Positions 417-19,900 of a stretch of DNA of 27,067 nucleotides are shown in pieces (position 1 is the first letter of the stretch; the number at the start of each line of letters is the position of its first letter). Under the pieces are notes generated by a model. The model did no database searches, was not told the DNA's origin, and saw nothing but the letters and a program-made list of their open reading frames with translations. The position numbers and the translations under genes were made by a program. Origin of the DNA: a virus (taxonomy: Duplodnaviria > Caudoviricetes). The stretch is taken from positions 1 through 27,067 of the IMG/VR virus record IMGVR_UViG_3300021560_000061; one strand, 5' to 3'.

Positions 417-520
417 AAAAAGTCTCACGAATCCGGCCTGCGGGGTAGCCAAAGGCCGGATCGTGGGGTAACGTTGGTCTTGTTGGGCCGGATGGAGGCC
501 CTAGGCGAAAGGCGAAGAAA

Positions 521-1126
521 ATGGCGAAGACCACGGTTCCCGCGACGGACGCGAAGCGTGCGGCTGACGAGAGCGTTCTGGCCGGCGTGACCGTTCCTGA
601 GAGCGAGCGGAAGGGCAACGGAGGCGCGAGCCCGGCTGCGGCCGCGAAGCTGGCGGAGATCGCGAAGAACAAGGCGAACGGCTCGACTCCGGCCGCGAAG
701 CCTCCGGTGCGGCGTACGCGGCGTCAGGCCGCTCCGGTCACCGTTACCCACACGGAGCCCACCGCTCCGGCCACGAAGGCTCCGGCGAAGGCCAAGCCCG
801 CGACTCCGGCGAAGGCCACTCCGGCGACTCCGGCGCGGCGCTCCGCGCGGAAGGCTCCGGCGACTCCGGCTCCTGAGCCCGCTCCGGTTCCTGCGGCTGC
901 GGCCGTTACCGCGCGGCAGGACAACCAGAAGCTCGCCCGCGAGGTCGCTGACCTGCTCGCGGAGCACTTCGGAGACCGCGATGAGGCGACTCAGACCAAG
1001 ATCGCGAACTGGGTGAAGAGCCTTCCGACCGGAGGCGCGGCCTGGAAGCGCTACTGGCCCAAGGGTTTCGCGCGGCCTACCTCCGCTGACTGGGTCGTGC
1101 CGGCAGGCGAGACTCTTCCGGAGTAA
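521..1126 (+). CDS. Ala/Pro/Lys-rich (histone-H1-like repeats) protein with conserved C-terminal domain
   Basis: GCGAAAGGCGAAGAAA before ATG; PATKAPAKAKPATPAK repeats; C-terminus paralogous to 9000..9527. Confidence 0.85.
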   Translation: MAKTTVPATDAKRAADESVLAGVTVPESERKGNGGASPAAAAKLAEIAKNKANGSTPAAKPPVRRTRRQAAPVTVTHTEPTAPATKAPAKAKPATPAKATPATPARRSARKAPATPAPEPAPVPAAAAVTARQDNQKLAREVADLLAEHFGDRDEATQTKIANWVKSLPTGGAAWKRYWPKGFARPTSADWVVPAGETLPE

Positions 1127-1199
1127 GGCGCTTGACGGCCGGTACGGGAAACCGTACCGGCCTTTAGGCGCATAGAGAGACCAAGCGAAAGGCGAGGAA

Positions 1200-1370
1200 A
1201 TGGCAGCAGACAAGAACTTCTCCTGGAAAGGTACGCTTGCGGAGGCTAATGATATCCGCACGGCCCTGGAGGAAAGGCACGCGGCGCTTACGGCGCGAAT
1301 CGTGGAGCTTGATGATGAAGAGCGTGCGGAAGTCGGCCGCATCGAGAAAATGCTGAGGGTGGACTTCTGA
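1200..1370 (+). CDS. small hypothetical protein (56 aa, MAADKNFSWKGTL...MLRVDF), not in ORF track
   Basis: Own translation; GAAAGGCGAGGAA start motif; TGATG overlap with next gene. Confidence 0.8.
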   Translation: MAADKNFSWKGTLAEANDIRTALEERHAALTARIVELDDEERAEVGRIEKMLRVDF

Positions 1371-1726
1371 TGGTTCATCCCGATTACGCCAAGCGATTCA
1401 ACCAGGCGCGCGATATCCGGCGCATTCTCATCCGGACGACTACGCGGCCGGTAACCAGTTCAGACCGCGAGCGGCTAACCGCCATCGCGAAAGACCTCAG
1501 CGAGTCGGCCAAGCTCGTGAAGCATGGCGGATATCTCATCGTCATCCTTCACTGGCCGGAAGATCCGGAGCGCGGGAATGAGGTTTATGGTCCGTTCGCG
1601 GACGAATCGAGCCAGATGGCATGGATCGATGAAGTTCGTGCGGCGAGCGATGGCGGAGACTTCCTGCTTGACGGAGTTCACTTTATCGCTACCCGGATGG
1701 ACCGGCCATTTCCGGTCCAGAGATAG
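1370..1726 (+). CDS. hypothetical protein
   Basis: 118 aa, translationally coupled to upstream ORF; followed by hairpin AGCCGGAGG...CCTCCGGCT. Confidence 0.75.
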   Translation: MVHPDYAKRFNQARDIRRILIRTTTRPVTSSDRERLTAIAKDLSESAKLVKHGGYLIVILHWPEDPERGNEVYGPFADESSQMAWIDEVRAASDGGDFLLDGVHFIATRMDRPFPVQR

Positions 1727-1881
1727 CCGGAAAAATTCAAGCCGGAGGCCGGTAAACCTCCGGCTCGTGATAGGCGTCTAAGTACGGTAGGGTACCTATC
1801 CGGCGCTAGGGCGTGCGGTCCTAGCACCGGGTAGGCGTACCGTCAAAGAGAGTACGCAAGTCAAGAAAGGCGAGAGGCGAA

Positions 1882-2373
1882 ATGTCTGAAATCAACACCA
1901 TCGAGTCGAGCGAGCACGAGGCCCAGGGCCAGCCCAGGAAGCGTTGGCTTCGCGGCCGGAGGCTTATCGCGGTTGCGGCCGTTCCGGTCGTCCTGGGAGG
2001 CGCTGTGGCCGTTGCTGTGGGCCTCACTGCCGGGCTCTCCGGCTCCGGCGCTCCGGCGACTCCGGCCGCTCAGCTGAGCGCGGACGGATTCCCGGTCACG
2101 ATGGACATGAACCACCAGCAGCTTCTGGGGCTCCTGAACGCGAGCGGTAGCACATCAAGCACCGACGCGCAGCTGGCCGGCTCGATGTTCTCTACCGGCG
2201 CGATGGGGATGAAGAACGGCCAGGGCGAGGTTGTCCTGGAGATGACCGACTCCGGGAAGTCCCTACTCACCAACCCGACGATGATGAACGACTTCAAGGC
2301 CGGATTCGGCCAGAGCGGCACGGTCAAGGTCATCGGCAACTTCCTGGTGATCGATGGGAGCATGAACAACTAG
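1882..2373 (+). CDS. membrane-anchored or secreted protein
   Basis: AAAGGCGAGAGGCGAA start motif; basic stretch followed by hydrophobic helix LIAVAAVPVVLGGAVAVAVGL. Confidence 0.8.
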   Translation: MSEINTIESSEHEAQGQPRKRWLRGRRLIAVAAVPVVLGGAVAVAVGLTAGLSGSGAPATPAAQLSADGFPVTMDMNHQQLLGLLNASGSTSSTDAQLAGSMFSTGAMGMKNGQGEVVLEMTDSGKSLLTNPTMMNDFKAGFGQSGTVKVIGNFLVIDGSMNN

Positions 2374-2473
2374 CTATCGACGGCTCATCCGGAGCTGGGT
2401 GGGAGGGAAAGCAAGCCCCAGCTCCGGGTAAGCCTGCCGACCGGCAGGTGGTTCCAAAAGGAAAGGCTCAGAA

Positions 2474-2977
2474 ATGAGTTCACGCAGGACCAAGCTCGTA
2501 GCGCTCGCGTCGGCCGTGGTGGCTGGCGGAGCCCTGACGGCCTCGCTCGCGGCTTCCTCCGCGAACGCCGCACCGATGGGCAACAGCCCCAGTAACATGA
2601 AGGCCGCAGCCTTCAGCCATCACCCGCGTGCGTGCGGATGGGATCTCGGAGCGAACACGCTGGACCTCACGTTCCAGGGCAACACGTTCACGTACCCGGT
2701 GTTCCTGGTCGCGAGTCGAGACGGTGCGGTCACCGGCGTCCTATTCGACAAGTACCTGCCCGGCCTGCTCACCGTCTCCGGCGACTGCTCCGGTGGCAAC
2801 ATCGAGCTGGACGTGAACTACCCGTCAATCGACCCTCAGGGCTCGCGAGCCGAGAACCTCATCGTCACGCCGGTTCCCGGTCACCCGCACCACGGCACCG
2901 TGGCCGGCGTCTGGGATGAGACCGGAAGCGAGGCCGGTTCCGGCGCGGCCTCATTCGAGATCCCGCTCCACCGCTAG
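2474..2977 (+). CDS. secreted protein with signal peptide
   Basis: GGAAAGG SD; MSSRRTK + hydrophobic core + ANA/A cleavage-like site; beta-rich mature part with 2 Cys. Confidence 0.8.
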   Translation: MSSRRTKLVALASAVVAGGALTASLAASSANAAPMGNSPSNMKAAAFSHHPRACGWDLGANTLDLTFQGNTFTYPVFLVASRDGAVTGVLFDKYLPGLLTVSGDCSGGNIELDVNYPSIDPQGSRAENLIVTPVPGHPHHGTVAGVWDETGSEAGSGAASFEIPLHR

Positions 2978-3140
2978 GCCCACTAGGCGCGGCTAGCCGC
3001 GCGCTACGGAGCCCGGAGCCGTCCCGGACGGCTACCGGGCTCCGTCGCTTTCCCGGAAGCCGTAGCGTTCGCCTACGGCTCGTGCATGCGGTAGGATACG
3101 GAATGAGCGAGCGAAAGCCGCTCGCGGAAAGGCGAATGAA

Positions 3141-3305
3141 ATGGCGAACATGGCGGAAGGCTCACGATGGGTCGATGAGGACATCGCGGCTCTCGCGGAG
3201 GTCGCGGAGGTCGCGGAGGTCGCGGAGGTCCCGGCCGATATCATGGCGGAAGGCCATCGATGGGTCGATGAGGACATCCGGGCTCTCGCGGCTCGCAAGA
3301 GCTAA
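3141..3305 (+). CDS. 54-aa peptide with internal duplication, not in ORF track
   Basis: MANMAEGSRWVDEDIAALAEVAEVAEVAEVPADIMAEGHRWVDEDIRALAARKS; GAAAGGCGA upstream; TAGGAT -10-like element near 3092. Confidence 0.7.
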   Translation: MANMAEGSRWVDEDIAALAEVAEVAEVAEVPADIMAEGHRWVDEDIRALAARKS

Positions 3306-3515
3306 CCGGTGAGGCCGGAGGCCGGAGGTTCCCTAGTGGGCCTCCGGCCTCCGACATTTTCGTGCGAAATTGGGATAGACGGCTCCGGTGCTTTGAGGTA
3401 GTCTTGACTTGTTGGGCTCCGGTAGCTCGGAACCGGCCGGTTGCGGCGGACATGCTAGCGGGAAGGGCAGCGAGGCCGGAGCCCGATCTAACTCAAGAGA
3501 GGCGAGAGGCGAACC

Positions 3516-3701
3516 ATGGAATTCAAGGCGATGGTGGAGTTTCTGATCCGGAACGGCTTCCCGGAGGATCACGCAGACCTGGTGGTCCACTGTGCTCAGG
3601 CCGGTACCGAATCCGGCGAGGCCGGTTCGGTCAAGGTACTCCGCGACGGACTGCCCTGGGAGGTTACGTATGACGGACTCTTCCGCGTGACGGTCGGCTG
3701 A
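3516..3701 (+). CDS. small hypothetical protein
   Basis: 61 aa; GAGAGGCGAGAGGCGAACC start motif. Confidence 0.75.
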   Translation: MEFKAMVEFLIRNGFPEDHADLVVHCAQAGTESGEAGSVKVLRDGLPWEVTYDGLFRVTVG

Positions 3702-3706
3702 GAGGA

Positions 3707-3776
3707 TGCGCCCGGAGGCTTTACTTCCAAAGCCTCCGGGCGTAGTCTTGTTCTAGGCGAAGAAAGGCGAGGCGAG
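3707..3776 (+). promoter_or_regulatory. inverted repeat overlapping sigma70-like promoter plus start motif
   Basis: IR arms 3707-3722/3729-3744; TTTACT-17bp-TAGTCT; GAAAGGCGAGGCGAG-ATG. Confidence 0.65.
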
Positions 3777-3911
3777 ATGCTTACTCTGATGTACGTTCTG
3801 GGAATCTTTACCGGCGTCTGGGGTGCGTACTACGCGGCTCGCTTCAAGACCTGGGTCCACCGGGTAACCAAGCCGCGTACGCGGCGCGTAGTCCGGAGGC
3901 GAGCCCGGTGA
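3777..3911 (+). CDS. 44-aa single-TM protein with Arg-rich tail, not in ORF track
   Basis: MLTLMYVLGIFTGVWGAYYAARFKTWVHRVTKPRTRRVVRRRAR; start motif upstream. Confidence 0.7.
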   Translation: MLTLMYVLGIFTGVWGAYYAARFKTWVHRVTKPRTRRVVRRRAR

Positions 3912-4087
3912 CTGATGCGGAGCGGCGCGAGCGCCGCTTGGCGACGTACCAGAAGTACAACTCAAGCAAGAAAGGCAAGATCCGATATGCCCGGTATGAG
4001 GCGGCTCATCCGGAGCGTGCGGAGGTGCGGTGGGAGCCCGCTAGGAACCGGCTCCACCACCAGGCGAAAGGCGAGAGCGATGATTGA
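3908..4087 (+). CDS. 59-aa basic hypothetical protein, not in ORF track
   Basis: GTGA overlap with upstream gene; MTDAERRERRLATYQKYNSSKKGKIRYARYEAAHPER... Confidence 0.6.
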   Translation: MTDAERRERRLATYQKYNSSKKGKIRYARYEAAHPERAEVRWEPARNRLHHQAKGESDD

Positions 4088-4211
4088 CTACGTGTGGGAA
4101 TGGCTGGAGTACGTTATCTGGCTTCTCACCCATAGCGGAGGGAACGTGAATGACGTCATGGCCCACCTCTTTGAGCTATTCCAGGGCATGAAGCGGCTCG
4201 CCCTGATTTAG
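4080..4211 (+). CDS. 43-aa hydrophobic protein
   Basis: MIDYVWEWLEYVIWLL...; GCGAAAGGCGAGAGCG before ATG; 3' part of track ORF 3915..4211. Confidence 0.65.
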   Translation: MIDYVWEWLEYVIWLLTHSGGNVNDVMAHLFELFQGMKRLALI

Positions 4212-4216
4212 CAAAA

Positions 4217-4288
4217 ACTACGCCGCGAGGTCTAGACTCCCTGGACTTTGCGGCGTAGTCTTGTCTTAGGCGAGGAAAGGACAGGGAG
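4217..4288 (+). promoter_or_regulatory. inverted repeat overlapping promoter plus RBS
   Basis: Imperfect IR 4217-4235/4241-4259; TAGACT-17bp-TAGTCT; same CGTAGTCTTGT..TAGGCGA block as at ~3741. Confidence 0.6.
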
Positions 4289-4504
4289 ATGGCGAACCGG
4301 ACTCCTGAGGAACTGGTAGGGATCATCGGCCGTATCGTCCGGATTCAGACGGCTCACCAGAACGAATGGTGTGACTGCGAGCGTTCCGGCTTCCTCGGTA
4401 GCGCCTATCTCTCGATGGAGGCGATTGAGACGCTACTGGCCGGAGCCGAGAGCGGGAATCTGCGGATGTTTTTGGAGGTGAATTGCGATGGTCTGGCTGA
4501 TTAG
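4289..4504 (+). CDS. small hypothetical protein
   Basis: 71 aa; GGAAAGG SD. Confidence 0.7.
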   Translation: MANRTPEELVGIIGRIVRIQTAHQNEWCDCERSGFLGSAYLSMEAIETLLAGAESGNLRMFLEVNCDGLAD

Positions 4505-4571
4505 CACGGCGTGTCTCCGTGGGGATTGCGGGAATTGCCGTGACCCGAAATGTAAGCACTCATGTCACTAA
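4488..4571 (+). CDS. 27-aa Cys/His-rich micro-protein, not in ORF track
   Basis: MVWLISTACLRGDCGNCRDPKCKHSCH; strong GGAGGTG SD upstream. Confidence 0.55.
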   Translation: MVWLISTACLRGDCGNCRDPKCKHSCH

Positions 4572-5104
4572 CCGGACTCGCCCCACTCGAAACGGGCGCA
4601 GCGGGCTCTCTCAAGCCCGTCCTGCGCCCAGTCTGGTATTCCGAATGGGAAGCCGCTCGTGAGGTGGTCTGCGTTAGCCTCCGTCGCGTCTACCGCGACG
4701 TGCGGCCGTTCCATCGGGCAGCCGTGCTCCGGCCGCCAGGCGAGTCCCCAGAGACGGCCGTGGTAATGGAGCTGGACCGGCCAGAGAATTGAGCTGGGCC
4801 TTGGGATATCCGGGAATATGACGATATCGTTTCCGCTCCCACACTGGGCCATTCCGCAGGCGATTGCGTGAAGCCTCCGCATTCCGTCAAGGTCTAGGTA
4901 GCCTTTCACCTCAGCCCACTGGCCGGAGCCGAGCCAGAAATCAGGCAGGTAATTGATCCGGCCTCGCGGAGTTTCTACCCGGAAGCCTTGCGGCTCATAG
5001 TCCCATTCGATCTTGACTTCATTAAAGAACACGGCCCAGCGAGCTTCCAGACGGGAACGGAATTTGTACCCACCGTAGTTGGTCTCTATCGCTTTTATCG
5101 TCAT
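4568..5104 (-). CDS. PD-(D/E)XK endonuclease (T7 endonuclease I-like phage family)
   Basis: YKFRSRLEARWAVFF...WDYEP...YLPDFWL...WAEVKG; the only convincing minus-strand gene. Confidence 0.8.
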   Translation of the reverse strand: MTIKAIETNYGGYKFRSRLEARWAVFFNEVKIEWDYEPQGFRVETPRGRINYLPDFWLGSGQWAEVKGYLDLDGMRRLHAIACGMAQCGSGNDIVIFPDIPRPSSILWPVQLHYHGRLWGLAWRPEHGCPMERPHVAVDATEANADHLTSGFPFGIPDWAQDGLERARCARFEWGESG

Positions 5105-5146
5105 GAGGGTATTCTAGCCGGAAACCCTAAGTTTCCGGAGGTCAAG

Positions 5147-5770
5147 ATGAATGCTGACCGGGTAGCCGAGATCAAGCGCCACCTTGCTGCGGCGGAAGGC
5201 CCAGACCGCGATGCGAGCATTCACATGTGGGAGGCTGCTCGCCTTATCTGGGAAGAGATCGATAGCGGGAAGTCGCGCCGTGCGCTAGGCCAGGAAATCG
5301 GCAAGAGCCATACCCACGTCCGGTATATGTTCAACTGCTGGGACATCGTCGGCCGGAAGATTGGCGGGAAGCCGGAAGACCTTCCGCAATTCAGCGAGGT
5401 CTACCATTCCACCGAGGTGCGAGGCGAGCCATCTGAAGGCTCCGGCGATGGGCAGGGCAATAAGCGTAGGCGTGAGCCTCCGGACCATACTGCTCATGGT
5501 CTCGTTATGTCGGCCTCTGAGTCGATTGACGGCCTAGCCCGGAATCCGCCATACTGGGTGCTCTTGACGGAGGAAGACTGGACGGTGCTCCGCGAGCTTC
5601 CGGCCGTAATTGACGCTCTTATCGCGGATGCCGGTCACTTATGCGCTTATGCCATTAGAGCGGCGCTTAGTCTCGAATCGCTTATCCTGCCTCTTATCGC
5701 GTATCGCTTACCGCGAATCGAGCCCGCTTATTACGGATCTCTTAATGACACTAGCGCTTATGCCGCATAA
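5147..5770 (+). CDS. helix-turn-helix DNA-binding protein
   Basis: GGAGG SD before ATG 5147; SRRALGQEIGKSHTHVRYM HTH-like segment; last ~50 codons run through the CTTA array. Confidence 0.65.
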   Translation: MNADRVAEIKRHLAAAEGPDRDASIHMWEAARLIWEEIDSGKSRRALGQEIGKSHTHVRYMFNCWDIVGRKIGGKPEDLPQFSEVYHSTEVRGEPSEGSGDGQGNKRRREPPDHTAHGLVMSASESIDGLARNPPYWVLLTEEDWTVLRELPAVIDALIADAGHLCAYAIRAALSLESLILPLIAYRLPRIEPAYYGSLNDTSAYAA

Positions 5771-5790
5771 GAGGTATGCTTCATATAAGC
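5615..5790. repeat. array of short (C/G)(G/T)CTTA-like direct repeats ending in two inverted copies
   Basis: CTTA at 5618, 5638, 5646, 5666, 5681, 5693, 5707, 5727, 5741, 5757; TAAG at 5768, 5786. Confidence 0.75.
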
Positions 5791-5848
5791 GGGCCACCTG
5801 GGGCGTGTAGCACCCTAGGTGGCCCTAGAACCTAGCTAGGAGGTTCCT
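5791..5848 (+). promoter_or_regulatory. two hairpins, the second sequestering the AGGAGG RBS
   Basis: GGGCCACCTGGGG...CCCTAGGTGGCCC, then GAACCT-AGCTAGG-AGGTTC before ATG 5849. Confidence 0.5.
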
Positions 5849-6763
5849 ATGCCGGATATTAACGCTCCGGGCTCGCGCGGCGCTACCCTACGCCGCTTTC
5901 TGCGAGTCGCTTATTCGCGCTTTCTCTGGCTCATCGTACTCGTGCCAACGCTAGGCGTCAGCGCGTACTCGTTTTACTGGGTCGGTACTCACTTTGGGGT
6001 GCCGCCGCTTATCGCGATCTTCATCAGTACGTGTTTCGACGGCTCCGCGCTCGTTGCGGCCGACTATTCGCTGAAGTATGCGGAGAAAGGAATGTCACCT
6101 ACAAAGCCACAGGCATTCGTTCGTGTGGTGGCGCTGACGTCTGCTTTCCTCCAGACATTTCACGCGAAGCTGGCCGGCGAGCCGCGCGGCGCATGGGTGA
6201 TGTGGGCAGCCCTGCCGGTAATCGCGGTTGTCCTTTACGACATCCATATTTCATTCGAGCGACGGAAGGCGCTCGCCCGTTCCGGTCAGGTCTATCCGGC
6301 TCCGCTACCGAAATGGGGCCTGGCTTCCTGGAGCCTGTTCTTCCTCTCAACCCTGAACGCGCTCCGCGACGTAACGCTGGCTAGGCGCGAGGCTCTCAAG
6401 ACCGTGGCGCTTCAAGTCGCATCGGACTTCCGGCGCGAGGCCGACAGGACCAGGAACACGCGCGAGCGTATCGAGCCGGTAGCGGACGTCATCGAGCTAG
6501 AGCCGACCGCAGATGGGGCCACAGTCGCGCCAGAGCATGTGATGGCAGAGCACCGCGCGAGGCACGCGGCCGGAACGTCCCGGAGGCCGCACAGCGGCTC
6601 CTGGGCTCAGAGGCACTCGCCGGAGCGTGAGATCAAGGACTGGGCGCGGACGCAGCCCGCATTCCGGGATCAGGTAGGCCAGCGCGGGAAGACTCCGGCG
6701 CGTATCAAGGAAGCGTTCTATCAGGCGCATCCGGACAAGAGGCCGTTATGTTTGATCTCATAA
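5849..6763 (+). CDS. DUF2637/Spd-like multi-TM membrane protein with C-terminal Lsr2-like DNA-binding domain
   Basis: ~4 TM helices; C-terminal EIKDWARTQ...VGQRGKTPARIKEAFYQAH resembles Lsr2 IREWARxxG..VSxRGRIPxxVxxAY. Confidence 0.75.
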   Translation: MPDINAPGSRGATLRRFLRVAYSRFLWLIVLVPTLGVSAYSFYWVGTHFGVPPLIAIFISTCFDGSALVAADYSLKYAEKGMSPTKPQAFVRVVALTSAFLQTFHAKLAGEPRGAWVMWAALPVIAVVLYDIHISFERRKALARSGQVYPAPLPKWGLASWSLFFLSTLNALRDVTLARREALKTVALQVASDFRREADRTRNTRERIEPVADVIELEPTADGATVAPEHVMAEHRARHAAGTSRRPHSGSWAQRHSPEREIKDWARTQPAFRDQVGQRGKTPARIKEAFYQAHPDKRPLCLIS

Positions 6764-8421
6764 TGCGCCACCTCCATGTAGCCTGGTGGATTCCGTTTGT
6801 GTTCTGGTTCGCGCTCTATACCGTTACCGCGTGCGCCTGGGTTATTAACGGCTACGCCCAGGAGTACCTAGGCTGGCGCCATCCTGGCCGGCCTGGGAAG
6901 ATCCATAAGGTTCTGGTGCGCTGGCATACCGGGCTCCACGTCCATCCGGACAAGAGCTATGGCGATGAGCGGAAGAACCGCAAGACGGCCGGAGGCTCTA
7001 CCCGCGCAACGGCTGAAGGCACGATCGTGTATTTCGCGCTTCACTCGCGCAAATACCGGTTCTTCCGGAATAACCTCATTACGTTCTTTGTCCTGGTCCT
7101 GCTAAGCTGTATGGCTATCGATCCGGCCGATACCGTCATTTCTGTGACGCTGACTATCCTTACGGTATTCCTTGCGCTAACCGTCTCGTTTGTAATGCGG
7201 AAGCGCGAGCAGTTCCGGAAGGCTCGCCCGCAGCATAGGCCAGCCATTGCCCGGACGACCGCAGCCAAGGCCGTATTCCGGGAAGACACGCTTACGGAAG
7301 GCACAAAGCCGGTACTCATTGAGGAAGAGAAGCCACAGCTGGAAGGCGTACCCAAGAACGTTCTTGCGAACCTACTCGCTGGAAAGATGGGCGTGTCGGC
7401 AGTCGAGATCAATGCGCGGCTCCGGCTCTCGCCGGATCAGGGTGCGCTCCAGCTACCGGACGCCTATGCGGCGCTTCAGAAAGAACGCGAGTCCGTTGAG
7501 GAGATCATCGAGGCACATACGGACGGCAAGGTCGCATTCCGGTGGGCCACCACGACTACGCCGCGCACCCTGTTCTGGACTCCGGTAATCGAGCCTAAGC
7601 TGCCGGACAAGGTTCTCTTCCGCGACTACCTACCGCAGCTGGAGGCGCTTCCAGCGCGTGAGACCGGTCTGGGCGTCCGGGCTAACCGCGATATGTACGT
7701 CCAGAGTCATAACGGAGACCTTCCGTGGTGGTGCCGCTTTATGGGCTCCGGTACTGGGAAGTCGCACAGCTTCCTCATCAAAGCAGCGCAGATCGCGCAT
7801 AAGGACCCAGCAGCCGATATCTACTGCTTTGATACCAAGCAGGTTTCATTCGAGATGCTCCATGATATTCCCGGCATCACGATCTTTGATGATCCGGTCA
7901 CCGGAATGGATAAGATCTGGACTGGTTTCTATAACCTTGCCGGAATCCTGGAGAGCCGGTATACAGCCGTCCGGGAGAAGCGAGCGAGGCTCAGTGACTT
8001 CAATGACATCTGGGTATTCGTCGATGAGGGAAACCACCTAGGCGGCAAGCTCAAGACGTACTGGACTAAAAACCTAGGCGAATCGAGCGCGAGCCCATCG
8101 ATATGGGCTGAGGCTATCGCTCCGCTACTCCAGCAAGGCCGCCAGGCGAATATGTTCGGTGAGATGATGTTCCAGGATCTTACCGACCGTGCTATGGGAG
8201 GCCAGTCGCTCAAGTTCGCGTTTAGCGCATTCTGCGCGGCCGGATTCCAGCCAAATCAGTTCACCCGGACGGTTGGCCCGCCAGCAGCCGAATGCCTGGA
8301 AGGTCCAGGGCGTATACTTGTGTGTCAAGGGAATAAGAGAACTTGGACGCAAGGCTTTATGGATGACGAGCAATGGCTTCATGACTACGCGCTCGCTAAC
8401 CGGAGAGGAAGGAAAGTATGA
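6748..8421 (+). CDS. FtsK/SpoIIIE-family (TraB-like) membrane ATPase / DNA translocase
   Basis: N-terminal TM helices; Walker A MGSGTGKS; FDTKQ; Walker B WVFVDEG; QGRQANM..MMFQ. Confidence 0.8.
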   Translation: MFDLIMRHLHVAWWIPFVFWFALYTVTACAWVINGYAQEYLGWRHPGRPGKIHKVLVRWHTGLHVHPDKSYGDERKNRKTAGGSTRATAEGTIVYFALHSRKYRFFRNNLITFFVLVLLSCMAIDPADTVISVTLTILTVFLALTVSFVMRKREQFRKARPQHRPAIARTTAAKAVFREDTLTEGTKPVLIEEEKPQLEGVPKNVLANLLAGKMGVSAVEINARLRLSPDQGALQLPDAYAALQKERESVEEIIEAHTDGKVAFRWATTTTPRTLFWTPVIEPKLPDKVLFRDYLPQLEALPARETGLGVRANRDMYVQSHNGDLPWWCRFMGSGTGKSHSFLIKAAQIAHKDPAADIYCFDTKQVSFEMLHDIPGITIFDDPVTGMDKIWTGFYNLAGILESRYTAVREKRARLSDFNDIWVFVDEGNHLGGKLKTYWTKNLGESSASPSIWAEAIAPLLQQGRQANMFGEMMFQDLTDRAMGGQSLKFAFSAFCAAGFQPNQFTRTVGPPAAECLEGPGRILVCQGNKRTWTQGFMDDEQWLHDYALANRRGRKV

Positions 8422-8846
8422 GGAAATGGATGGAGCGCCAGTGTGGCCGGCTGAACTTCTCTCCGGCGATGTCGGTGCTCTGTATTCTGATCGCGCTTGC
8501 GGTAATCGTTTACGTCTACCGCCACCTCATCATCATGACGCTGCTGTACTTCCTACTCGCGGCTGGCATCCTGTTCGCGATTATGGCGACGGTTGCCCTG
8601 GCGGTGAATTACTACCGCTGGCAGAAGCGGCGTACGGAGGCCGCGATTTCGGCAGAGATCAAGGCCCACGGAGCCGGTATCGAGCGCTCTGGCTCCCTGA
8701 CGGCTCCGCTCCCGGATGCCGACATGCCGCGTCCGGTCTCGCCGGAAGACATGAGGCGGACGGCCGACTGGCTCTCCAACCCCGGTACGGAGCTGACCTG
8801 GAGCGCGGACGGCAAGACGCTAACCGCCAAGGATGGTGATGCATGA
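8418..8846 (+). CDS. two-TM membrane protein
   Basis: ATGA overlap with the ATPase gene; two hydrophobic segments. Confidence 0.75.
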   Translation: MRKWMERQCGRLNFSPAMSVLCILIALAVIVYVYRHLIIMTLLYFLLAAGILFAIMATVALAVNYYRWQKRRTEAAISAEIKAHGAGIERSGSLTAPLPDADMPRPVSPEDMRRTADWLSNPGTELTWSADGKTLTAKDGDA

Positions 8847-8906
8847 CCGGCGTCTCGTGGGGATAACACACACTGTTCGAAATTGGTTTCCGTTCGAATG
8901 CAATAC

Positions 8907-8999
8907 CGGTTCCGCAAGCTGAAAAAAGTTTGCGGAACCGTTTTGTTTCTGCCAAACATGGGGTAGACTTGCCGTAGGCAAGAACGAAAGGCGAGGAAA
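8907..8999 (+). promoter_or_regulatory. terminator-like hairpin + promoter + start cassette, copy A
   Basis: IR 8907-8920/8927-8940 + TTTTG; TAGACT at 8964; TTGCCGTAGGC; GAAAGGCGAGGAAA-ATG. Confidence 0.75.
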
Positions 9000-9527
9000 A
9001 TGAAAGTTACGGTAGTCAAGAACTGGCAAGGCCGGGAAGAGATCCACAAGGCCGGCTGCTCCGACCTCAAGCGCCGGAATCGGCCTTACCGGCTCGCGGA
9101 CGCGATGACGATGGAGGCCGCAAGTGAGGCCGATATCTTCGCGAGCTACTGGGACTGTATAGCGGATGAGGCCGTGGCGAATGGCGACTATGCGACCGTA
9201 GAGCACGTCTGGTGGGCGTGGCAGTCCGAATTCTCCGTGAAGCCGTGCGCGAAGGAACTGCCTCCGATGGCTGACCCTAACAAGGCTCCGGCTCTGGCTC
9301 CGGCTCCGGCTCCGGCCGCGAACGGAAAGGGCAAGCGGAGCGCGAACCAGGAGACGGCTCGCTGGCTGGTAGACCTCGTGGCCGCTCACGCGGGCGAGCT
9401 AGAGCCGGAGCAGCTCCAGAAGGCCGTGAACTGGCTGAGCCACCTTCCGACCGGAGGCGAGGGTGCTGGCCCGCTCCGGTATTGGCCGGAAGGCCTGGTG
9501 CGGCCGGACAAGGCTGACTGGCGGTAG
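9000..9527 (+). CDS. hypothetical protein with C-terminal domain paralogous to 521..1126
   Basis: NWLSHLPTGG..RYWPEGLVRPDKADW versus NWVKSLPTGG..RYWPKGFARPTSADW. Confidence 0.85.
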   Translation: MKVTVVKNWQGREEIHKAGCSDLKRRNRPYRLADAMTMEAASEADIFASYWDCIADEAVANGDYATVEHVWWAWQSEFSVKPCAKELPPMADPNKAPALAPAPAPAANGKGKRSANQETARWLVDLVAAHAGELEPEQLQKAVNWLSHLPTGGEGAGPLRYWPEGLVRPDKADWR

Positions 9528-9536
9528 GGAACGGGC

Positions 9537-9639
9537 GAGCGGCCGGAGGAATCTCCTCCGGCCGCTTTGCTTTTTGGCAGACGTGAGGTAAGCTTGCCCT
9601 AGCGGCCGGAGGAACCGGCCGGAGGCGAGAGGCGAGGAA
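9537..9639 (+). promoter_or_regulatory. cassette copy B
   Basis: GAGCGGCCGGAGGA/TCCTCCGGCCGCTT hairpin, TTTGCTTTTTGGCAGA, TAAGCT at 9589, GAGAGGCGAGGAA-ATG. Confidence 0.8.
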
Positions 9640-9951
9640 ATGGCGAATCTGACTACCATGGAACACGGGCTAGCGCTCGCGGCGCTCTACGTCGCGGAAG
9701 CCGTAGACACGGCCGGAACCGGCGATGGTCCGATGAGCGGCTACTGGGCGGAAGAGCACACGACTCCGGACACCGAGGAAGATGTGCTGCCGAGCACGCT
9801 CTACGGTGGTCCGGGCGAGAACAAGCCGCGCTCCGGCTTTACGCTGTGGAACGGAGCGCACGGCTACCGTGTGACTATCGAGCCGCTAGAGTGGACGCAG
9901 CGGCCGGAGGCCGTTCCGTCCGAGACGTGGCACCGGACTCGCCACCCGTAG
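9640..9951 (+). CDS. hypothetical protein
   Basis: 103 aa directly after cassette B. Confidence 0.8.
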   Translation: MANLTTMEHGLALAALYVAEAVDTAGTGDGPMSGYWAEEHTTPDTEEDVLPSTLYGGPGENKPRSGFTLWNGAHGYRVTIEPLEWTQRPEAVPSETWHRTRHP

Positions 9952-9961
9952 GCGAGCTAGC

Positions 9962-10047
9962 GAGCGGCCGGAGGTTAGCACCTCCGGCCGCTTTGCTTTT
10001 TGGCAGTAGTGCGGTAAGCTTGCCGTAGGCGAACGAAAGGCGAGGAA
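9962..10047 (+). promoter_or_regulatory. cassette copy C
   Basis: Same hairpin arms, TTTGCTTTTTGGCAG, TAAGCT at 10015, TTGCCGTAGGC, GAAAGGCGAGGAA-ATG. Confidence 0.8.
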
Positions 10048-10386
10048 ATGAACGAGATGAGCTGGAAGGCCGGAGAGCGGTGCGAGCGGCACGAGCAGGG
10101 CTGGTGTGCGGAGTGCCGGCCGGTAATCGTCCCGGAGCCTGCTCCGGTATCCGCTCCGGTAGCGAAGGTGCGGAAGCCAGCTTTCCAGTGGACTTACCGG
10201 AGCGTTAACACGGCTCTGAAGGCCGTGGACGTAGCCGTCAAAGAGACGCTAGCCGACAATCCGGAGATGGCCTCCGTGGAAGACTCCGTTTACTGGGAGA
10301 TCTGCCAGGCGATTCAGTTTGACACCGCTCCGGCCGCGCGGCGCGAGCTAGCGCGGGTAACCGGCGTGGCCCTGATCGACCGGTAG
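10048..10386 (+). CDS. hypothetical protein with N-terminal CxxH-x4-CxxC motif
   Basis: CERHEQGWCAEC; follows cassette C. Confidence 0.8.
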   Translation: MNEMSWKAGERCERHEQGWCAECRPVIVPEPAPVSAPVAKVRKPAFQWTYRSVNTALKAVDVAVKETLADNPEMASVEDSVYWEICQAIQFDTAPAARRELARVTGVALIDR

Positions 10387-10398
10387 CCGAGAGCGAGT

Positions 10399-10481
10399 GA
10401 CGGCCGGAGGATTCCTCCGGCCGTTTTGCTTTTTGGCAGAACTGGGGTAGACTTGCCGTAGGCAAGGCGAGAGGCGAGGAA
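10399..10481 (+). promoter_or_regulatory. cassette copy D
   Basis: GACGGCCGGAGG/CCTCCGGCCGTT hairpin, TTTGCTTTTTGGCAGA, TAGACT at 10448, TTGCCGTAGGC, GAGAGGCGAGGAA-ATG. Confidence 0.8.
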
Positions 10482-10922
10482 ATGGGACAGAAGCGGCAGG
10501 ATGAGACTCCGATAGCGGTTGCGCGCGCGGATGCGTTCGCTCGCGAGGCGCGGAAGTATGGTCTCCGGGCTCGCGTGGAAGTCGAGACCCATCCGGCTGA
10601 GTACTACAAGCACGAGCCGACTGAGATCATGCTCGCGGAGCGGATTACCGCGTGGGCGATCGTGGATGACGAATGGCTCGGAGTCTTTGGAGACCACCTG
10701 ATGGTCGGATGGTCTTCCGTCCGTCCGGGGCAGGCCGGATACTCCGCGACTACGCGGTTCATGTCCGGGAACGTCTCCCGGACGCTGCTCCCTACCAAGA
10801 AGCTTTCGGAGCGTGCGTCGTGGAGCGAGCTAGCGAACTACCGCTACCGGCTCGATGACCCTGCTAAGTACGGTATCAAAGAGGACACCACGCCGGAGTC
10901 GGCGTGGTCGTGGAGCAAGTGA
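10482..10922 (+). CDS. hypothetical protein
   Basis: 146 aa after cassette D. Confidence 0.8.
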   Translation: MGQKRQDETPIAVARADAFAREARKYGLRARVEVETHPAEYYKHEPTEIMLAERITAWAIVDDEWLGVFGDHLMVGWSSVRPGQAGYSATTRFMSGNVSRTLLPTKKLSERASWSELANYRYRLDDPAKYGIKEDTTPESAWSWSK

Positions 10923-11157
10923 GAGGAAGCGCCTCCGGGCGAGCGATCTGTACGGGTGCGGAAGAACGATAGGTACAAAGTGGAAGTCCAGTCATACGTA
11001 GGCGAGCCGCGAAAGCTCGTGCTATGGGCGCGAGGCGAGATAGGGTGGATCTGGCAGCAGTCGATGCCCATCCCGGACGGCCTAGATGCGGCGTGGCTGG
11101 AAAATGACGTACTAAACCGGCTCGCGTAGGAAGCGCAGAACCGGTATACTTGTGCGT

Positions 11158-11247
11158 GGAGCCGGAGCCCGGCATTGTAGGTGGCCCAGTCCCGAAAGCA
11201 ATCGGGCCAGTAGGGACGTAACTGCCGAAGTGGAGCGCTCCGGCTCC
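11158..11247 (+). ncRNA. candidate structured leader RNA with possible pseudoknot
   Basis: Begins 8 nt after TATACT (11145-11150); perfect 11-bp closing stem and nested stems. Confidence 0.4.
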
Positions 11248-11273
11248 CCAAGGCGAAACGAGGAAGGCGAGAG

Positions 11274-12239
11274 ATGGACCTCAGCAAGACCCTAAAGACA
11301 ATCCGTGGGCTCTACGCGAAGGCAGAGAGCCTGGAGGCGATGGGCTCTCCGGACAACATTAAGGAAGCGGATACCTACCGCGCCAAGGCCGATGGCCTTA
11401 TGCAGCAGTACGCGGTAGAGGAATGGCAGCTCCTGAACGTAGCGGCTACCGGCCTAAAGCCGTCAAAGATCCGCATCGAGATCGGGATGTGGGATAGCCC
11501 GTTCCGCGACGAAACGGCGACGCTGGTCTATATCGTCGCCAAGTTCTGTAAGTGCGCTTCCATCCAGATCATGGACTCCGGGAAATACCGGGGCACCGAG
11601 GATTGGTGCGAGGTCTACGGGTACGAGAGTGACCTGCGGTATTTCGAGCTTCTGTATACGTCGCTATTCCTCCACATGAGCGGCGCTATTTTCCCCAAGC
11701 CGAATCCGGCGTTGTCGCTAGGCGAGAATGCCTACATTCTCCACAATGCGGGAATGAACTGGTTTGACATCGCCAAGGCGTATGGCTGGCGCGAAGTCAC
11801 GAGCCGTCCGGGCGAAGCCAAGTACATGTATGTGAACGAGAGCCTCCATCCGGGCGAGCGGATCTCCTGGGCCAAGAGCATCGGCCGGATCAAGGCCGCG
11901 TACGTCGCGGAGATTGCGCGCCGTGGCGAGGTATTCTTCAGGATTCCGCCATCCGGCTCTGAGACGTTCCGGCGCAACGCGGCGCAGGGATACCTCACAC
12001 AGATCCGGTCTCGGCTCACAAAGATGGCCGGCGAGCGCGGAGCCGGTACGGAGCTGGTCCTGCGCGACAAGACGCAGAACGTAGCCGATATGCTCGCGGC
12101 TGAGCATCCCGACAAGAAAGCCTCCGGTACCAAGAACCTCCGGTATAACCATGATGCCTACCAGCTAGGCGTACGCCATGCGAACATGGCTGACTTGAAC
12201 CCGGCAGCGGGCTCGCCTAGGCGCGGAGCGATCTCGTGA
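11274..12239 (+). CDS. DUF2786-domain protein
   Basis: N-terminal IRGLYAKAES..EADTYRAKADGLMQQYAV pattern; YGYESD; C-terminal AYQLGVRHANMADL. Confidence 0.75.
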   Translation: MDLSKTLKTIRGLYAKAESLEAMGSPDNIKEADTYRAKADGLMQQYAVEEWQLLNVAATGLKPSKIRIEIGMWDSPFRDETATLVYIVAKFCKCASIQIMDSGKYRGTEDWCEVYGYESDLRYFELLYTSLFLHMSGAIFPKPNPALSLGENAYILHNAGMNWFDIAKAYGWREVTSRPGEAKYMYVNESLHPGERISWAKSIGRIKAAYVAEIARRGEVFFRIPPSGSETFRRNAAQGYLTQIRSRLTKMAGERGAGTELVLRDKTQNVADMLAAEHPDKKASGTKNLRYNHDAYQLGVRHANMADLNPAAGSPRRGAIS

Positions 12240-12403
12240 GGAAGCACAAGGCCACCGTCGCCATCGGAGCGACGGTGGCCGGCTATCTAGCCGCGTACCA
12301 GCTCCACGGCCCAGAGACGCTGGCTCTGCGCCGCGTAGGCGTACTCCTGATGCTAGCCGGAATTGTCTGGCTCGCGCTCCGCATCGTTAGGAGAGGTCGA
12401 TGA
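12236..12403 (+). CDS. 55-aa membrane protein, not in ORF track
   Basis: GTGA overlap; MRKHKATVAIGATVAGYLAAYQL...VGVLLMLAGIVWLALRIVRRGR. Confidence 0.65.
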   Translation: MRKHKATVAIGATVAGYLAAYQLHGPETLALRRVGVLLMLAGIVWLALRIVRRGR

Positions 12404-12558
12404 GAGACAAAACCTTTGCGACGGTAGGCGTTGTAGCCGCAGTCGGTTCGCTAGTTGCGTTCGCCGGATCATCAAACGATCCAGGATTCATCAGAGTCGC
12501 CTCGCTCGTACTTGGGTGCGTGATCCTGCTAGTCATCTGGTTCGGGAAGCCGCACTGA
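12400..12558 (+). CDS. 52-aa two-TM membrane protein, not in ORF track
   Basis: ATGA overlap, AGGAGAGG SD; MRDKTFATVGVVAAVGSLVAFAG...VASLVLGCVILLVIWFGKPH. Confidence 0.7.
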   Translation: MRDKTFATVGVVAAVGSLVAFAGSSNDPGFIRVASLVLGCVILLVIWFGKPH

Positions 12559-12560
12559 AA

Positions 12561-12640
12561 TTTTGCTTTCCGGCCGGTCTGGGGTATAGTTGTCTCTAGT
12601 CGGCCGGAGAGAAGATCCGGCGAAGCGAAAGGCGAGGAAA
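12561..12640 (+). promoter_or_regulatory. promoter related to cassettes A-D
   Basis: TTTTGCTT ... TGGGG-TATAGT (12585); GCGAAAGGCGAGGAAA-ATG. Confidence 0.65.
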
Positions 12641-13273
12641 ATGGCGAGTATCAAGTGCGGACACTGCCGGAAGATCCACGAGAGTGCGGCGGCTGTGTTC
12701 CGGTGCTCGATGAACCAGGCGAACGAAACCGCGCGTGCGGCCGCTCCGGCGACGGAGACCGCTACCGGTCACCGGCTAGGCGTCCGTGAGAACAAGTTCG
12801 CTCAGGACTGCGCGAAGTGCGGTCACGAGGTCGCGGCGCTAGCCGGAAGGCTAGAGCGGAACGCGAGCGGCCGGTGGGACGTTTACCACATGGATGGTCA
12901 GTGCGGCGAGATCGTTCGTAACCCTAAGCAGGGCGGCAAGTTCCCGGAAGGCTTTAAGGCGATTCCGGCCGGACACTACGCGGTCAAGTCGCTTACCGGT
13001 AACAACGATCTCGATTTCTTCCGGGTTGACCGGCCGACTGAGGGACGGCACGCCGGAAGGATTTTCGTGAAGCGGGTCATCGGTGGGAAGCCGGAAGCTC
13101 CGGTTCACGGCTCTACCCGCTACGCGGCGCTAGAGGCGATCGTGAAGGCCGGAGTCGATGCGGCCGGATTCCTCTACGGTCAGGAGCTAGGCCGGTGCCG
13201 GAAGTGTAACCGCCACCTTACCGATGAAACTTCGCGCTCGCTCTCGATGGGCCCGGAGTGCCGGAGTAAGTAA
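12641..13273 (+). CDS. multi-Zn-finger protein with C-terminal DUF6011-like domain
   Basis: CGHC..H..C, CAKC, and CRKCNRHLTDETSRSLSMGPEC; start reassigned to ATG 12641. Confidence 0.75.
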   Translation: MASIKCGHCRKIHESAAAVFRCSMNQANETARAAAPATETATGHRLGVRENKFAQDCAKCGHEVAALAGRLERNASGRWDVYHMDGQCGEIVRNPKQGGKFPEGFKAIPAGHYAVKSLTGNNDLDFFRVDRPTEGRHAGRIFVKRVIGGKPEAPVHGSTRYAALEAIVKAGVDAAGFLYGQELGRCRKCNRHLTDETSRSLSMGPECRSK

Positions 13274-13338
13274 CAAGACGTCAGACGGGCGAGGCGCTAT
13301 CCTACGGGTAGCGCCTCGCGGCGCAGAAAGGCGATACC

Positions 13339-13923
13339 ATGAAAACCTACCACGTAGTAATCGAGCCGATGGACGGCTACCAGAGCGAGAGCGAATTCCA
13401 GGCCCAGATTCTCCACATGGAGTACACGTTCACTATCGGTGACCGGGCTCCGGAGAAAGACCCAGAGGTCTTGGTGCGTGGCTTCCTTCGCGACTCCCAC
13501 CTATTCCGGTACGTCAAGGTCACGGAGCTGCGCGAGGCCGATACGTCCTGCGCCGGAATCGAGACGGCTCCGGACTCACCGCCGCTTACGGCTCCGGAGT
13601 CCGGACTGACCGATATCTGCGAGGTCTGCCGGAAGTCCCATTCCGACGCTAAAGAGACCGTCAGGTTCAGCAGTCTCCTGACGTTCTATCCGGGGCACGA
13701 GTACGTCATCCGCACCAAGACCTCGCAGCAAAAATACGCGCGAGAATGGCGGATGGGATATATCGGTTTCGGAATGGGGATGCAGTTCTCGGCTCGCGGT
13801 CCTGACCGGACGCACGGAGGCCAGTACGGAGGTACCCAGCAAATCGACCTCGCGATGATAATCGGAGCGCGCGAGGTAGAGCGTGACGATTCGCTCCGCT
13901 ATACCGGAAAGGTAGTCAAGTAA
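13339..13923 (+). CDS. hypothetical protein
   Basis: 194 aa; GAAAGGCGATACC start motif after a GC hairpin. Confidence 0.75.
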   Translation: MKTYHVVIEPMDGYQSESEFQAQILHMEYTFTIGDRAPEKDPEVLVRGFLRDSHLFRYVKVTELREADTSCAGIETAPDSPPLTAPESGLTDICEVCRKSHSDAKETVRFSSLLTFYPGHEYVIRTKTSQQKYAREWRMGYIGFGMGMQFSARGPDRTHGGQYGGTQQIDLAMIIGAREVERDDSLRYTGKVVK

Positions 13924-14084
13924 TGCCACCGTTCATTTCCCTCATGTTCCCGTCCATGATTCCGGCGACGGTTCCGGCCGAATCCGGAAGACACGAGGCT
14001 CCCACGACCAAGCGCTGCGGTAACTGCGGAGCCGTTAATCCGGCTGGCGCTAGTAAGTGTGGCGGATGTAGCAAGTCATTCTAG
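13923..14084 (+). CDS. 53-aa zinc-ribbon protein, not in ORF track
   Basis: TAATG overlap; KRCGNCGAVNPAGASKCGGCSKSF. Confidence 0.65.
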   Translation: MPPFISLMFPSMIPATVPAESGRHEAPTTKRCGNCGAVNPAGASKCGGCSKSF

Positions 14085-14138
14085 GCCGATTACCGGTGGA
14101 GTAGACTACCGGTATCCCAACGCTCGAAAGGCGAGACA

Positions 14139-14531
14139 ATGGCAAGAACGTCCAGTAACCCCACTCCTGAGGAAGTCGTCCGCGAGTACCTCAAGGGCAG
14201 GAAGCTTTCCGGCTCCGGCCGTGCGACGTACGTTGGCCCGGAGGATGCGGCGCTGTGGGCGCGCGAGATCGCGGAGCGGCTTCCCAAGTCCACGAACGTC
14301 AAGGCCTGGGTCGGCTACGGTCCTGACCGGAAGGCCGTACTCTTCACCGGGAAGTCCAAGGCCGAGATCAAAGAGAAGTGGGAGGCATCGATTGGCGTTA
14401 CCGACGCGAAGCGTCAGGTGCGCGTGGTCTTCACGGCCTCCGGCGTCTACCGCTACTCGTTCACGGCCGCAGACTTCTCTACCCACGACATCTGGATCGT
14501 GGAAGCCGGAATGGAGGGTTTCGGTGCTTAA
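14139..14531 (+). CDS. hypothetical protein
   Basis: 130 aa; CGAAAGGCGAGACA start motif; TAGACT inside an upstream IR. Confidence 0.8.
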   Translation: MARTSSNPTPEEVVREYLKGRKLSGSGRATYVGPEDAALWAREIAERLPKSTNVKAWVGYGPDRKAVLFTGKSKAEIKEKWEASIGVTDAKRQVRVVFTASGVYRYSFTAADFSTHDIWIVEAGMEGFGA

Positions 14532-19894: not shown

Positions 19895-19900
19895 GCCGCT

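What the first reader, a model, noticed from the sequence alone, without database searches (positions are those of the whole stretch)
5147..8846. Plasmid-type TraB/Spd-like DNA transfer module inside a phage-like genome
Seen: HTH gene, short-repeat array, DUF2637-like membrane gene, membrane FtsK-family ATPase and a coupled 2-TM gene, all among phage early and replication genes. Known: Streptomyces plasmids and AICEs move dsDNA with one FtsK-like TraB, Spd membrane proteins and a repeat-containing clt site. Inference: this phage or phage-plasmid may move its genome between cells or hyphal compartments without virions. These genes lack the AGGCGA start motif used elsewhere, consistent with acquisition as a block.
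Basis: partly seen in the sequence, partly recalled or inferred. Interest (0 to 1): 0.85.

Follow-up and report, generated by a model that had tools for sequence, protein, structure and literature searches.

The report
Plasmid-type DNA pump in soil phages
A family of uncultured tailed phages, likely infecting filamentous soil actinobacteria, keeps a conserved operon for a membrane-anchored FtsK-fold motor and a membrane partner with a predicted DNA-binding tail, related to a gene pair on Streptomyces plasmids, which would let the phage push its naked genome from one hyphal compartment into the next without making virions; this function is untested.

Summary
The block is real. It encodes an HTH protein, a DUF2637 membrane protein, a membrane-anchored FtsK-fold ATPase and a coupled 2-TM protein, with a divergent nuclease beside it. 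It is a core module: DUF2637 precedes the ATPase in 26 of 26 non-redundant related loci. Five long relatives are tailed phages, one complete; no integrase or ParA was found in them.

The ATPase is not classical TraB. It groups with 'pRL2-11-like' Streptomyces plasmid ATPases, which also lie near DUF2637 genes, and it lacks TraB's C-terminal DNA-recognition domain in 53 of 53 homologues. The partner instead ends in an Lsr2 DNA-binding domain, swapped for a zinc finger in four relatives.

The repeat array beats shuffles but varies, is missing in about 40% of relatives and sits on the promoter, so 'clt' is doubtful. The AGGCGA argument fails.

Best reading (about 0.5, untested): an early pump spreading phage DNA across hyphal cross-walls. 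SpdB2-aided phage spread was already speculated in print, and this scan reported the same module twice on other DNA.

The parts
4568..5104 (-). PD-(D/E)XK-like nuclease (178 aa), head-to-head with the HTH gene; always linked, role in the module unknown
   Evidence: Pfam Phage_endo_I E 1.5e-4, below cut-off; phrog_21138 E 5e-31; present in 21 of 21 non-redundant loci with room
5147..5770 (+). HTH protein, ParB/KorB-like DNA-binding fold without a CTPase domain; likely regulator. The core is about 165 aa; the window's extra 40 codons read through the repeat array
   Evidence: alignment A3; model pLDDT 88.7; VIA-align best Spo0J Z 7.3 (rmsd 3.3, 79 aligned), ParB 6.4, KorB 6.2, all middling; Foldseek E>0.5; present in 23 of 24 loci
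5616..5760 (+). short-repeat array, 10 x [CG][GTA]CTTA, directly upstream of the likely promoter; more likely an operator or DNA-capture patch than a TraB clt
   Evidence: 0 of 1000 shuffles reach it; 14 of 25 relatives have a significant array at p<=0.01, with differing motifs
5775..5780 (+). possible -10 element (TATGCT) of the DUF2637 operon; inferred by eye
   Evidence: relatives have TATCAT, TACACT or TATGCT at this place, and L002 resembles the window's repeated early motif CTTGCCnTA; not reported by the sigma-70 scan
5791..5825 (+). G+C-rich hairpin 24-58 nt before the DUF2637 start codon, conserved in structure rather than sequence
   Evidence: 15 pairs, z -5.6; z<=-2 in 19 of 28 DUF2637 leaders against 2 of 30 ATPase and 5 of 25 HTH leaders
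5849..6763 (+). DUF2637 membrane protein (304 aa) with a C-terminal Lsr2-type DNA-binding domain; Spd-like partner
   Evidence: phrog_10376 E 9e-26; Lsr2_DNA-bd in 19 of 28; CxxC..YCxxxC finger instead in 4 of 28
6748..8421 (+). membrane-anchored FtsK/HerA-superfamily ATPase (557 aa) of the pRL2-11-like branch, with no C-terminal DNA-recognition domain
   Evidence: (pLDDT 82.3)
8418..8846 (+). translationally coupled 2-TM protein (142 aa) with a conserved soluble C-terminal motif; no known family
8843..8866 (+). 7-codon remnant at the place where many relatives have a fifth small 2-TM gene (64-80 aa)
   Evidence: fifth gene in 18 of 30 loci examined; the close relative L029 continues from the same first three codons into a hydrophobic frame (read by eye)
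8907..8940 (+). intrinsic-terminator-like hairpin closing the operon in this genome
   Evidence: 14 pairs plus T run; not found after the TM gene in 30 relatives by my script, which had no positive control

Best explanation
This is a conserved operon of a family of tailed phages, encoding a membrane-anchored FtsK-fold ATPase and a DUF2637 membrane partner related to a Streptomyces plasmid gene pair, which likely pumps naked phage dsDNA across hyphal cross-walls into neighbouring compartments of a filamentous actinobacterial host. Shown: genes, synteny, fold, motifs, plasmid kinship, virion genes in relatives, and no integrase or ParA found. Inferred steps: (1) the operon is transcribed early from a promoter just behind the repeat array; (2) the ATPase forms a hexameric ring in the membrane at septa, with the DUF2637 and 2-TM proteins as Spd-like channel parts; (3) because the pump lacks a wHTH, DNA is captured in trans by the partner's Lsr2 or zinc-finger tail, with low sequence specificity; (4) one infection then seeds several compartments, enlarging the burst; (5) the HTH protein (plus a GntR in one relative) restrains the operon, as TraR/KorA does on plasmids.
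For: FtsK motor is the top fold match. DEGN Walker B is present in 53 of 53 homologues and GR[QE] in 52 of 53, so the motor is kept intact down to 40% identity. The profile hits plasmid ATPases at E 6e-50 to 2e-24, and the tree joins them at 99/98 support. Plasmid NZ_CP109008.1 has the same order: divergent GntR, DUF2637, ATPase, coupled hydrophobic gene. DUF2637 precedes the ATPase in 26 of 26 loci. Two unrelated fold types of DNA-binder alternate at the partner's C-terminus. Relative L070 has a GntR gene directly before DUF2637 (Pfam E 2.1e-9). Thoma et al. (PMC4447253, sections read) show TraB plus SpdB2 drive intramycelial spreading and note SpdB2 homologues on actinophages. The phages have their own terminase, so the ATPase is not needed for packaging.
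Against: There is no experiment and no cultured member. The host is inferred only from homologues and could be non-filamentous. The ATPase is not classical TraB, and I found no paper on the function of the pRL2-11-like family; on some plasmids it lies beside TcpC or MobF genes, and the coupling protein TcpA fits the fold almost as well (E 1.4e-11). The first Gly of Walker A is replaced by M, A or I, as in plasmid relatives. Homology to characterised Spd proteins is weak: pIJ101 SpdB domain E 2e-5, and the pSG5 and pJV1 candidates were not hit. The DUF2637 gene also occurs without this ATPase in 91 phage records and in G010. The window has lost the fifth gene.
Confidence: 0.5

Rival explanations
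1. True conjugation: the phage persists as a plasmid-like carrier state and the pump moves the genome from donor to recipient hyphae, using the repeat array as a clt.
For: On plasmids a single Tra plus clt suffices (PMC4447253; PMC3583192). clt sites are short direct plus inverted repeats, which the array and hairpin resemble. A plasmid-phage with transfer genes exists (pZL12, cited in PMC3583192).
Against: No integrase or ParA in 5 relatives. No prophage-like hit among GTDB genomes. No wHTH to read a clt. The array is not significant in 10 of 25 relatives. The replication genes resemble those of Streptomyces phage Yara and kin, recalled as lytic.
Confidence: 0.15
2. Intracellular positioning: the complex tethers or moves replicating phage DNA at the membrane, towards growing tips or into prespore compartments, like chromosomal FtsK or SffA, without crossing vegetative cross-walls.
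For: FtsK is the best fold match. The upstream protein resembles the ParB DNA-binding domain and is followed by repeats. FtsK-like genes occur in cultured Streptomyces phages and are read as developmental (PMC10117723, PMC13587820 passages).
Against: Array similarity does not follow the HTH protein: L004/L034 have arrays 0.76 alike with HTH 28% and DUF2637 86% identical; rho -0.05 over 91 non-independent pairs. The kinship is to plasmid Tra-type genes, not a segregation locus.
Confidence: 0.15
3. Conflict function: the membrane complex acts on other DNA or on the host, for example blocking superinfecting phages or resident conjugative elements, or disabling septal closure, with the linked nuclease as effector.
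For: The nuclease is linked in 21 of 21 loci and its divergence tracks the ATPase (rho 0.82). The DUF2637 gene alone is kept by many large Streptomyces phages and by a satellite.
Against: The nuclease is divergent and separately transcribed. A full motor plus two or three membrane genes in plasmid order fits transport better than exclusion.
Confidence: 0.12
4. Coupling-protein or EccC-like role: the ATPase exports proteins or relaxase-bound ssDNA through a host or co-resident secretion system.
For: TcpA and EccC are high in the fold list; some plasmid relatives lie by TcpC or MobF genes; the only sequence-level PDB match of note is EccCb1 at E 0.036.
Against: Single ATPase domain. No relaxase, VirB4 or WXG100 gene appeared in PHROG/Pfam scans of relatives' ORFs (subsets of ORFs). 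Small plasmids carry the family without such genes in their annotation.
Confidence: 0.06

Closest known systems
TraB-Spd transfer and spread apparatus of Streptomyces plasmids (pSVH1, pIJ101, pSG5, pJV1)
   Same: membrane-anchored FtsK-like ATPase in a coupled operon with small and multi-TM genes and an upstream regulator; nearby short repeats
   Different: separate ATPase branch, no significant profile match, no C-terminal wHTH, DNA-binding domain on the partner, and carried by tailed phages
pRL2-11-like ATPase plus DUF2637 gene pair of Streptomyces plasmids (e.g. NZ_CP109008.1, NZ_CP108096.1, NZ_CP058978.1); uncharacterised as far as my searches went
   Same: closest ATPase kin (25-31% identity, profile E to 6e-50); DUF2637 or 'conjugal transfer protein' gene upstream; GntR regulator nearby
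   Different: plasmid ATPases have a tail over 100 aa longer that looks HTH-like by eye (no Pfam hit); their DUF2637 proteins gave no Lsr2 hit
DUF2637 gene and unlinked FtsK-like gene of large Streptomyces phages such as Samisti12; DUF2637-like gene of satellite MiniFlayer
   Same: homologous DUF2637 protein (profile E 5e-42 and 5e-34); both gene types in one cultured phage
   Different: genes about 62 kb apart in Samisti12; its ATPase falls with TraB in the tree (long branch); no Lsr2 hit on its DUF2637 protein
Streptomyces plasmid-phage pZL12
   Same: a tailed-phage genome reported to have conjugal transfer genes (via PMC3583192; the original paper was not read)
   Different: has ParA, ParB and an integrase; no match to this DUF2637 profile or to the ATPase
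TcpA coupling protein (pCW3) and chromosomal FtsK
   Same: same motor fold
   Different: 13-16% identity; no relaxase or T4SS genes seen; no gamma domain

Membership tests
FtsK/HerA ATPase superfamily | FtsK motor fold with Walker A, Walker B, arginine finger and conserved Gln | tested here: met
   Foldseek E 1.4e-12 to FtsK; DEGN 53 of 53, GR[QE] 52 of 53, Walker A variant matched in 49 of 53 by my pattern; Q476 invariant; P0011 and P0038 pass the PF01580 cut-off
Streptomyces TraB | N-terminal membrane anchor plus FtsK-like motor | tested here: met
   hydrophobic segments at 15-33, 105-124, 126-151; model
Streptomyces TraB | C-terminal winged HTH that reads clt repeats | tested here: not met
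   only 16-30 residues follow the last motor strand in 53 of 53 homologues; feature defined in PMC3583192 passage
Streptomyces TraB | sequence kinship with characterised TraB/Tra | tested here: not met
   profile E 1.1 (pSG5), 0.023 (pIJ101), 0.078 (pJV1) in a 16-protein set; separate branch; pSVH1 was not in the collection
Streptomyces TraB | clt of 7-9 bp direct repeats required in cis | tested here: inconclusive
   6-bp array real in the window, significant in 14 of 25 relatives, motif not conserved; function untestable here
Streptomyces TraB | dsDNA transfer or pock formation | not testable with these tools
   needs mating assays
pRL2-11-like plasmid ATPases | profile and tree kinship; DUF2637/Spd-like gene upstream | tested here: met
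   (99/98); Atlas lists a pRL2-11 cluster at 0.96
pRL2-11-like plasmid ATPases | long C-terminal tail after the motor | tested here: not met
   alignment A6
SpdB2-like spread proteins | multi-TM membrane protein with DNA-binding ability | tested here: inconclusive
   three hydrophobic segments and a predicted Lsr2 domain; weak link to pIJ101 SpdB only; DUF2637 did not hit the three Spd candidates; binding and pore formation not testable
Tailed phage (Caudoviricetes) | terminase, portal, major capsid, tail and tape-measure genes | tested here: met
   met in relatives: terminase, portal and capsid in G001, G004, G005, G006, G007, tape measure in four of them; the window itself is a 27-kb fragment without this region
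Temperate phage or phage-plasmid | integrase or ParA-type partition genes | tested here: not met
   0 of 5 genomes (3 at least 97% complete) for PF00589, PF07508, PF13614, with controls ringing in 14, 2 and 14 of 14; other maintenance systems not excluded
ParB/KorB | ParB-type HTH DNA-binding domain | tested here: inconclusive
   top ranks in both searches but Z 7.3 and E>0.5
ParB/KorB | N-terminal CTPase domain and ParA partner | tested here: not met
   protein begins at the HTH domain; no ParA
EccC / type VII secretion | three tandem ATPase domains and WXG100 neighbours | tested here: not met
   single motor domain; no such neighbours

The most novel reading that the evidence does not exclude
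A family of virulent tailed phages spreads virion-free through a multicellular bacterium with a domesticated conjugation pump: a split TraB in which the motor has lost its DNA reader and a membrane partner with an exchangeable Lsr2 or zinc-finger tail feeds it, moving phage DNA across cross-walls and perhaps into touching hyphae that lack the phage receptor.
Probability: 0.4. Interest if true: 0.9.

Novelty: new variant of a known kind. Interest (0 to 1): 0.72.

Why it matters
How phages cope with the cross-walled mycelium of filamentous actinobacteria is open. Thoma et al. 2015 speculated in one sentence that phage SpdB2 homologues assist DNA spreading. This operon supplies a whole candidate machine (motor, partner, accessory membrane genes, regulator) in phages without lysogeny genes. 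It is about 3.7 kb and can be tested with standard pock and spreading assays in laboratory Streptomyces. If it works, it is direct cell-to-cell spread by a tailed phage, and a DNA pump whose substrate recognition is outsourced. It also points to a function for the DUF2637 genes in 91 phage records.

Tried and rejected
No hit for the ATPase in 50,697 phage records or in GTDB genomes by pattern scan, so no named host. A second genome scan with a plasmid homologue gave one Streptomyces contig. A DNA-level search of that homologue in phages found nothing.

No RNA holder was listed for the stretch.

AGGCGA as evidence of block acquisition was rejected (three of my 34 gene starts there were mis-set). 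The HTH protein as specific reader of the array was rejected as unlikely. Searches for family members that lack the module were too insensitive to decide (nuclease 5 loci, helicase 2 loci); the HTH alignment could not be searched. A conserved terminator after the TM gene was not found in 30 relatives, without a positive control. The tree has no chromosomal FtsK, EccC or TcpA rows and has long branches. PF01580 misses even Samisti12's annotated FtsK, so its absence on the window protein means little.

Paper searches found no description of such an operon in phages; the library lacks most subscription papers, and no supplements were read.
Full report
Setting. The window is a whole 27,067-base virus record. 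It holds early and replication genes: SNF2 helicase, exonuclease, Sak4-like ATPase, ThyX, glycosyltransferase. No virion genes lie in it. Its exonuclease is closest (49%) to Streptomyces phage Yara and kin among cultured phages, which lack both the ATPase and the DUF2637 gene. An actinobacterial host is inferred from these and the hits below; a filamentous host is not shown.

Four genes on the + strand span 5147-8846, the last three overlapping. The array is 10 copies of [CG][GTA]CTTA at 5616-5760, above all 1000 dinucleotide shuffles. It overlaps the last 40 codons of the HTH frame, which most relatives lack.

It is a phage family's core module. The ATPase has 53 homologues at 40-76% identity among 7999 scored candidates, none in GenBank phages or GTDB genomes. 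Scans gave 14 viral and 51 metagenomic loci, one of them the window's own record. Among 45 non-redundant loci, DUF2637 precedes the ATPase in 26 of 26 with room, the HTH gene in 23 of 24 and a divergent nuclease in 21 of 21. The 2-TM gene was found by tblastn or, in 13 loci, by position. A fifth small 2-TM gene follows in 18 of 30 loci; the window keeps only a 7-codon remnant. ATPase identity tracks helicase identity (rho 0.69, 55 non-independent pairs from 11 loci), consistent with long vertical inheritance.

The carriers are tailed phages. G005 (64.7 kb, terminal repeats, 100%), G001 (97%), G004 (98%), G007 and G006 encode terminase, portal and capsid genes of two different head types, plus tail genes and their own polymerase and primase. 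Tyrosine integrase, serine recombinase and ParA were found in 0 of 5. ORF scans of subsets found none either. The 'simply a plasmid or AICE' refutation fails, and a classical phage-plasmid is unlikely.

The ATPase. The model (pLDDT 82.3) matches the FtsK motor best (E 1.4e-12), then TcpA (1.4e-11) and EccC (7.8e-10). Walker B, arginine finger and a variant Walker A are conserved. It ends 16-30 residues after the motor in 53 of 53 homologues, so there is no wHTH. By sequence it hits 52 plasmid records, 50 from Streptomyces. The profile scores 'pRL2-11-like' proteins at E 6e-50 to 2e-24 but the Tra proteins of pSG5, pIJ101 and pJV1 not significantly (the names TraB and SpdB2 for pSG5 and pJV1 genes are recalled, their records say hypothetical or FtsK domain). 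In a 23-row tree the phage proteins are one clade (100/100) joined to the plasmid family (99/98), apart from TraB and Samisti12's FtsK; long branches and the lack of chromosomal outgroups limit it. Plasmid NZ_CP109008.1 shows the same layout: divergent GntR, DUF2637, ATPase, coupled hydrophobic gene. Against a simple reading, other plasmid relatives lie beside TcpC or MobF genes.

The partner. DUF2637 matches 24 of 28 aligned members and Lsr2_DNA-bd 19 of 28 at E<=0.05. In 4 of 28 the tail is a CxxC..YCxxxC finger instead, one weakly matching zf-CGNR. Two different DNA-binding folds at one position suggest that the tail's job is to hold DNA, supplying what the pump lacks (inference). Homology to characterised Spd proteins is weak (pIJ101 SpdB, domain E 2e-5). 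Homologues occur in 91 phage records without this ATPase; Samisti12 has an unlinked FtsK-like gene.

Regulation and the array. The HTH protein's best structural matches are Spo0J, ParB and KorB DNA-binding domains, at middling scores. The array is significant in 14 of 25 relatives, borderline in 1 and not in 10, with different motifs; some of these loci are near-copies. It does not follow the HTH protein. It abuts a likely -10 element and a hairpin conserved in 19 of 28 leaders, so an operator or leader role is at least as likely as clt. One relative, L070, has a GntR gene directly before DUF2637, the regulator class of plasmid TraR (PMC4447253). AGGCGA precedes 14 of 29 other genes and none of the five here, but is also absent before Sak4, ThyX and others, and codon use of the ATPase (0.126) resembles core genes (0.075-0.115): no evidence for recent block acquisition.

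Mechanism. I commit to intramycelial spread of naked phage DNA (0.5), with conjugation of a carrier state (0.15), intracellular positioning (0.15), a conflict role (0.12) and a coupling or secretion role (0.06) as rivals. Nothing functional was tested.

Literature. [quoted passage not shown] PMC3583192 and PMC3218068 (passages) define Tra/clt and mention pZL12 transfer genes. PMC10117723, PMC13587820 and PMC4569894 (passages) note FtsK-like genes in actinophages as developmental or segregation genes. Passages of PMC7650747, PMC9239103, PMC4487206, PMC4255298 and PMC7824862 added nothing on this operon. Nine searches found no description of it; the pZL12 paper itself was not read.

Verdict. A real and conserved new variant of the Tra/Spd kind, not a member of TraB proper, in phages that look virulent. 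Two earlier notes of this scan describe the same module in other genomes; I re-tested their structural claims. Interest 0.72.

Noticed in passing
window 500-13340 and 16323-27000: AGGCGA occurs 76 times on the + strand and 9 times on the - strand, often doubled just before start codons of small early genes: a start-associated motif.
   Followed up: partly
window 8968, 9593, 10019, 10452: Repeated motif CTTGCCnTA (twice within GTAGACTTGCC) before early genes, a likely phage early promoter.
   Followed up: partly
window 521-1126 and 9000-9527: Two paralogous early proteins sharing a conserved C-terminal domain, present in many relatives, with no Pfam or PHROG match.
   Followed up: no
window 14059-15348, 23669-26063: TET-associated-type glycosyltransferase, oxidoreductase-like gene, ThyX and an unannotated 232-aa ORF that looks like a 2OG-Fe dioxygenase by eye: a possible DNA base-modification set.
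   Followed up: no
L070:1165-1797: GntR-family gene inserted between the HTH and DUF2637 genes, a TraR/KorA-type regulator class.
   Followed up: yes
L106 (G010, 72% complete): Close DUF2637+Lsr2 homologue with no ATPase match in the record.
   Followed up: partly
L023:16978-17721 (G004): Ltp-type surface lipoprotein, recalled as a superinfection-exclusion gene, in a relative without integrase.
   Followed up: no
L006:14392-15336 (satellite phage MiniFlayer gene 19): The satellite's membrane protein is a homologue of the DUF2637 partner (profile E 5e-34).
   Followed up: partly
P0053: Divergent 508-aa ATPase homologue whose N-terminus shares a motif with plasmid pRL2-11-like proteins; a possible intermediate, context not seen.
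   Followed up: partly
G001/G004/G005 against G006/G007: The same module and replication genes are joined to two different terminase-portal sets.
   Followed up: no
L081:12074-14854 (G005): A 927-codon open frame in the head region with no PHROG match.
   Followed up: no
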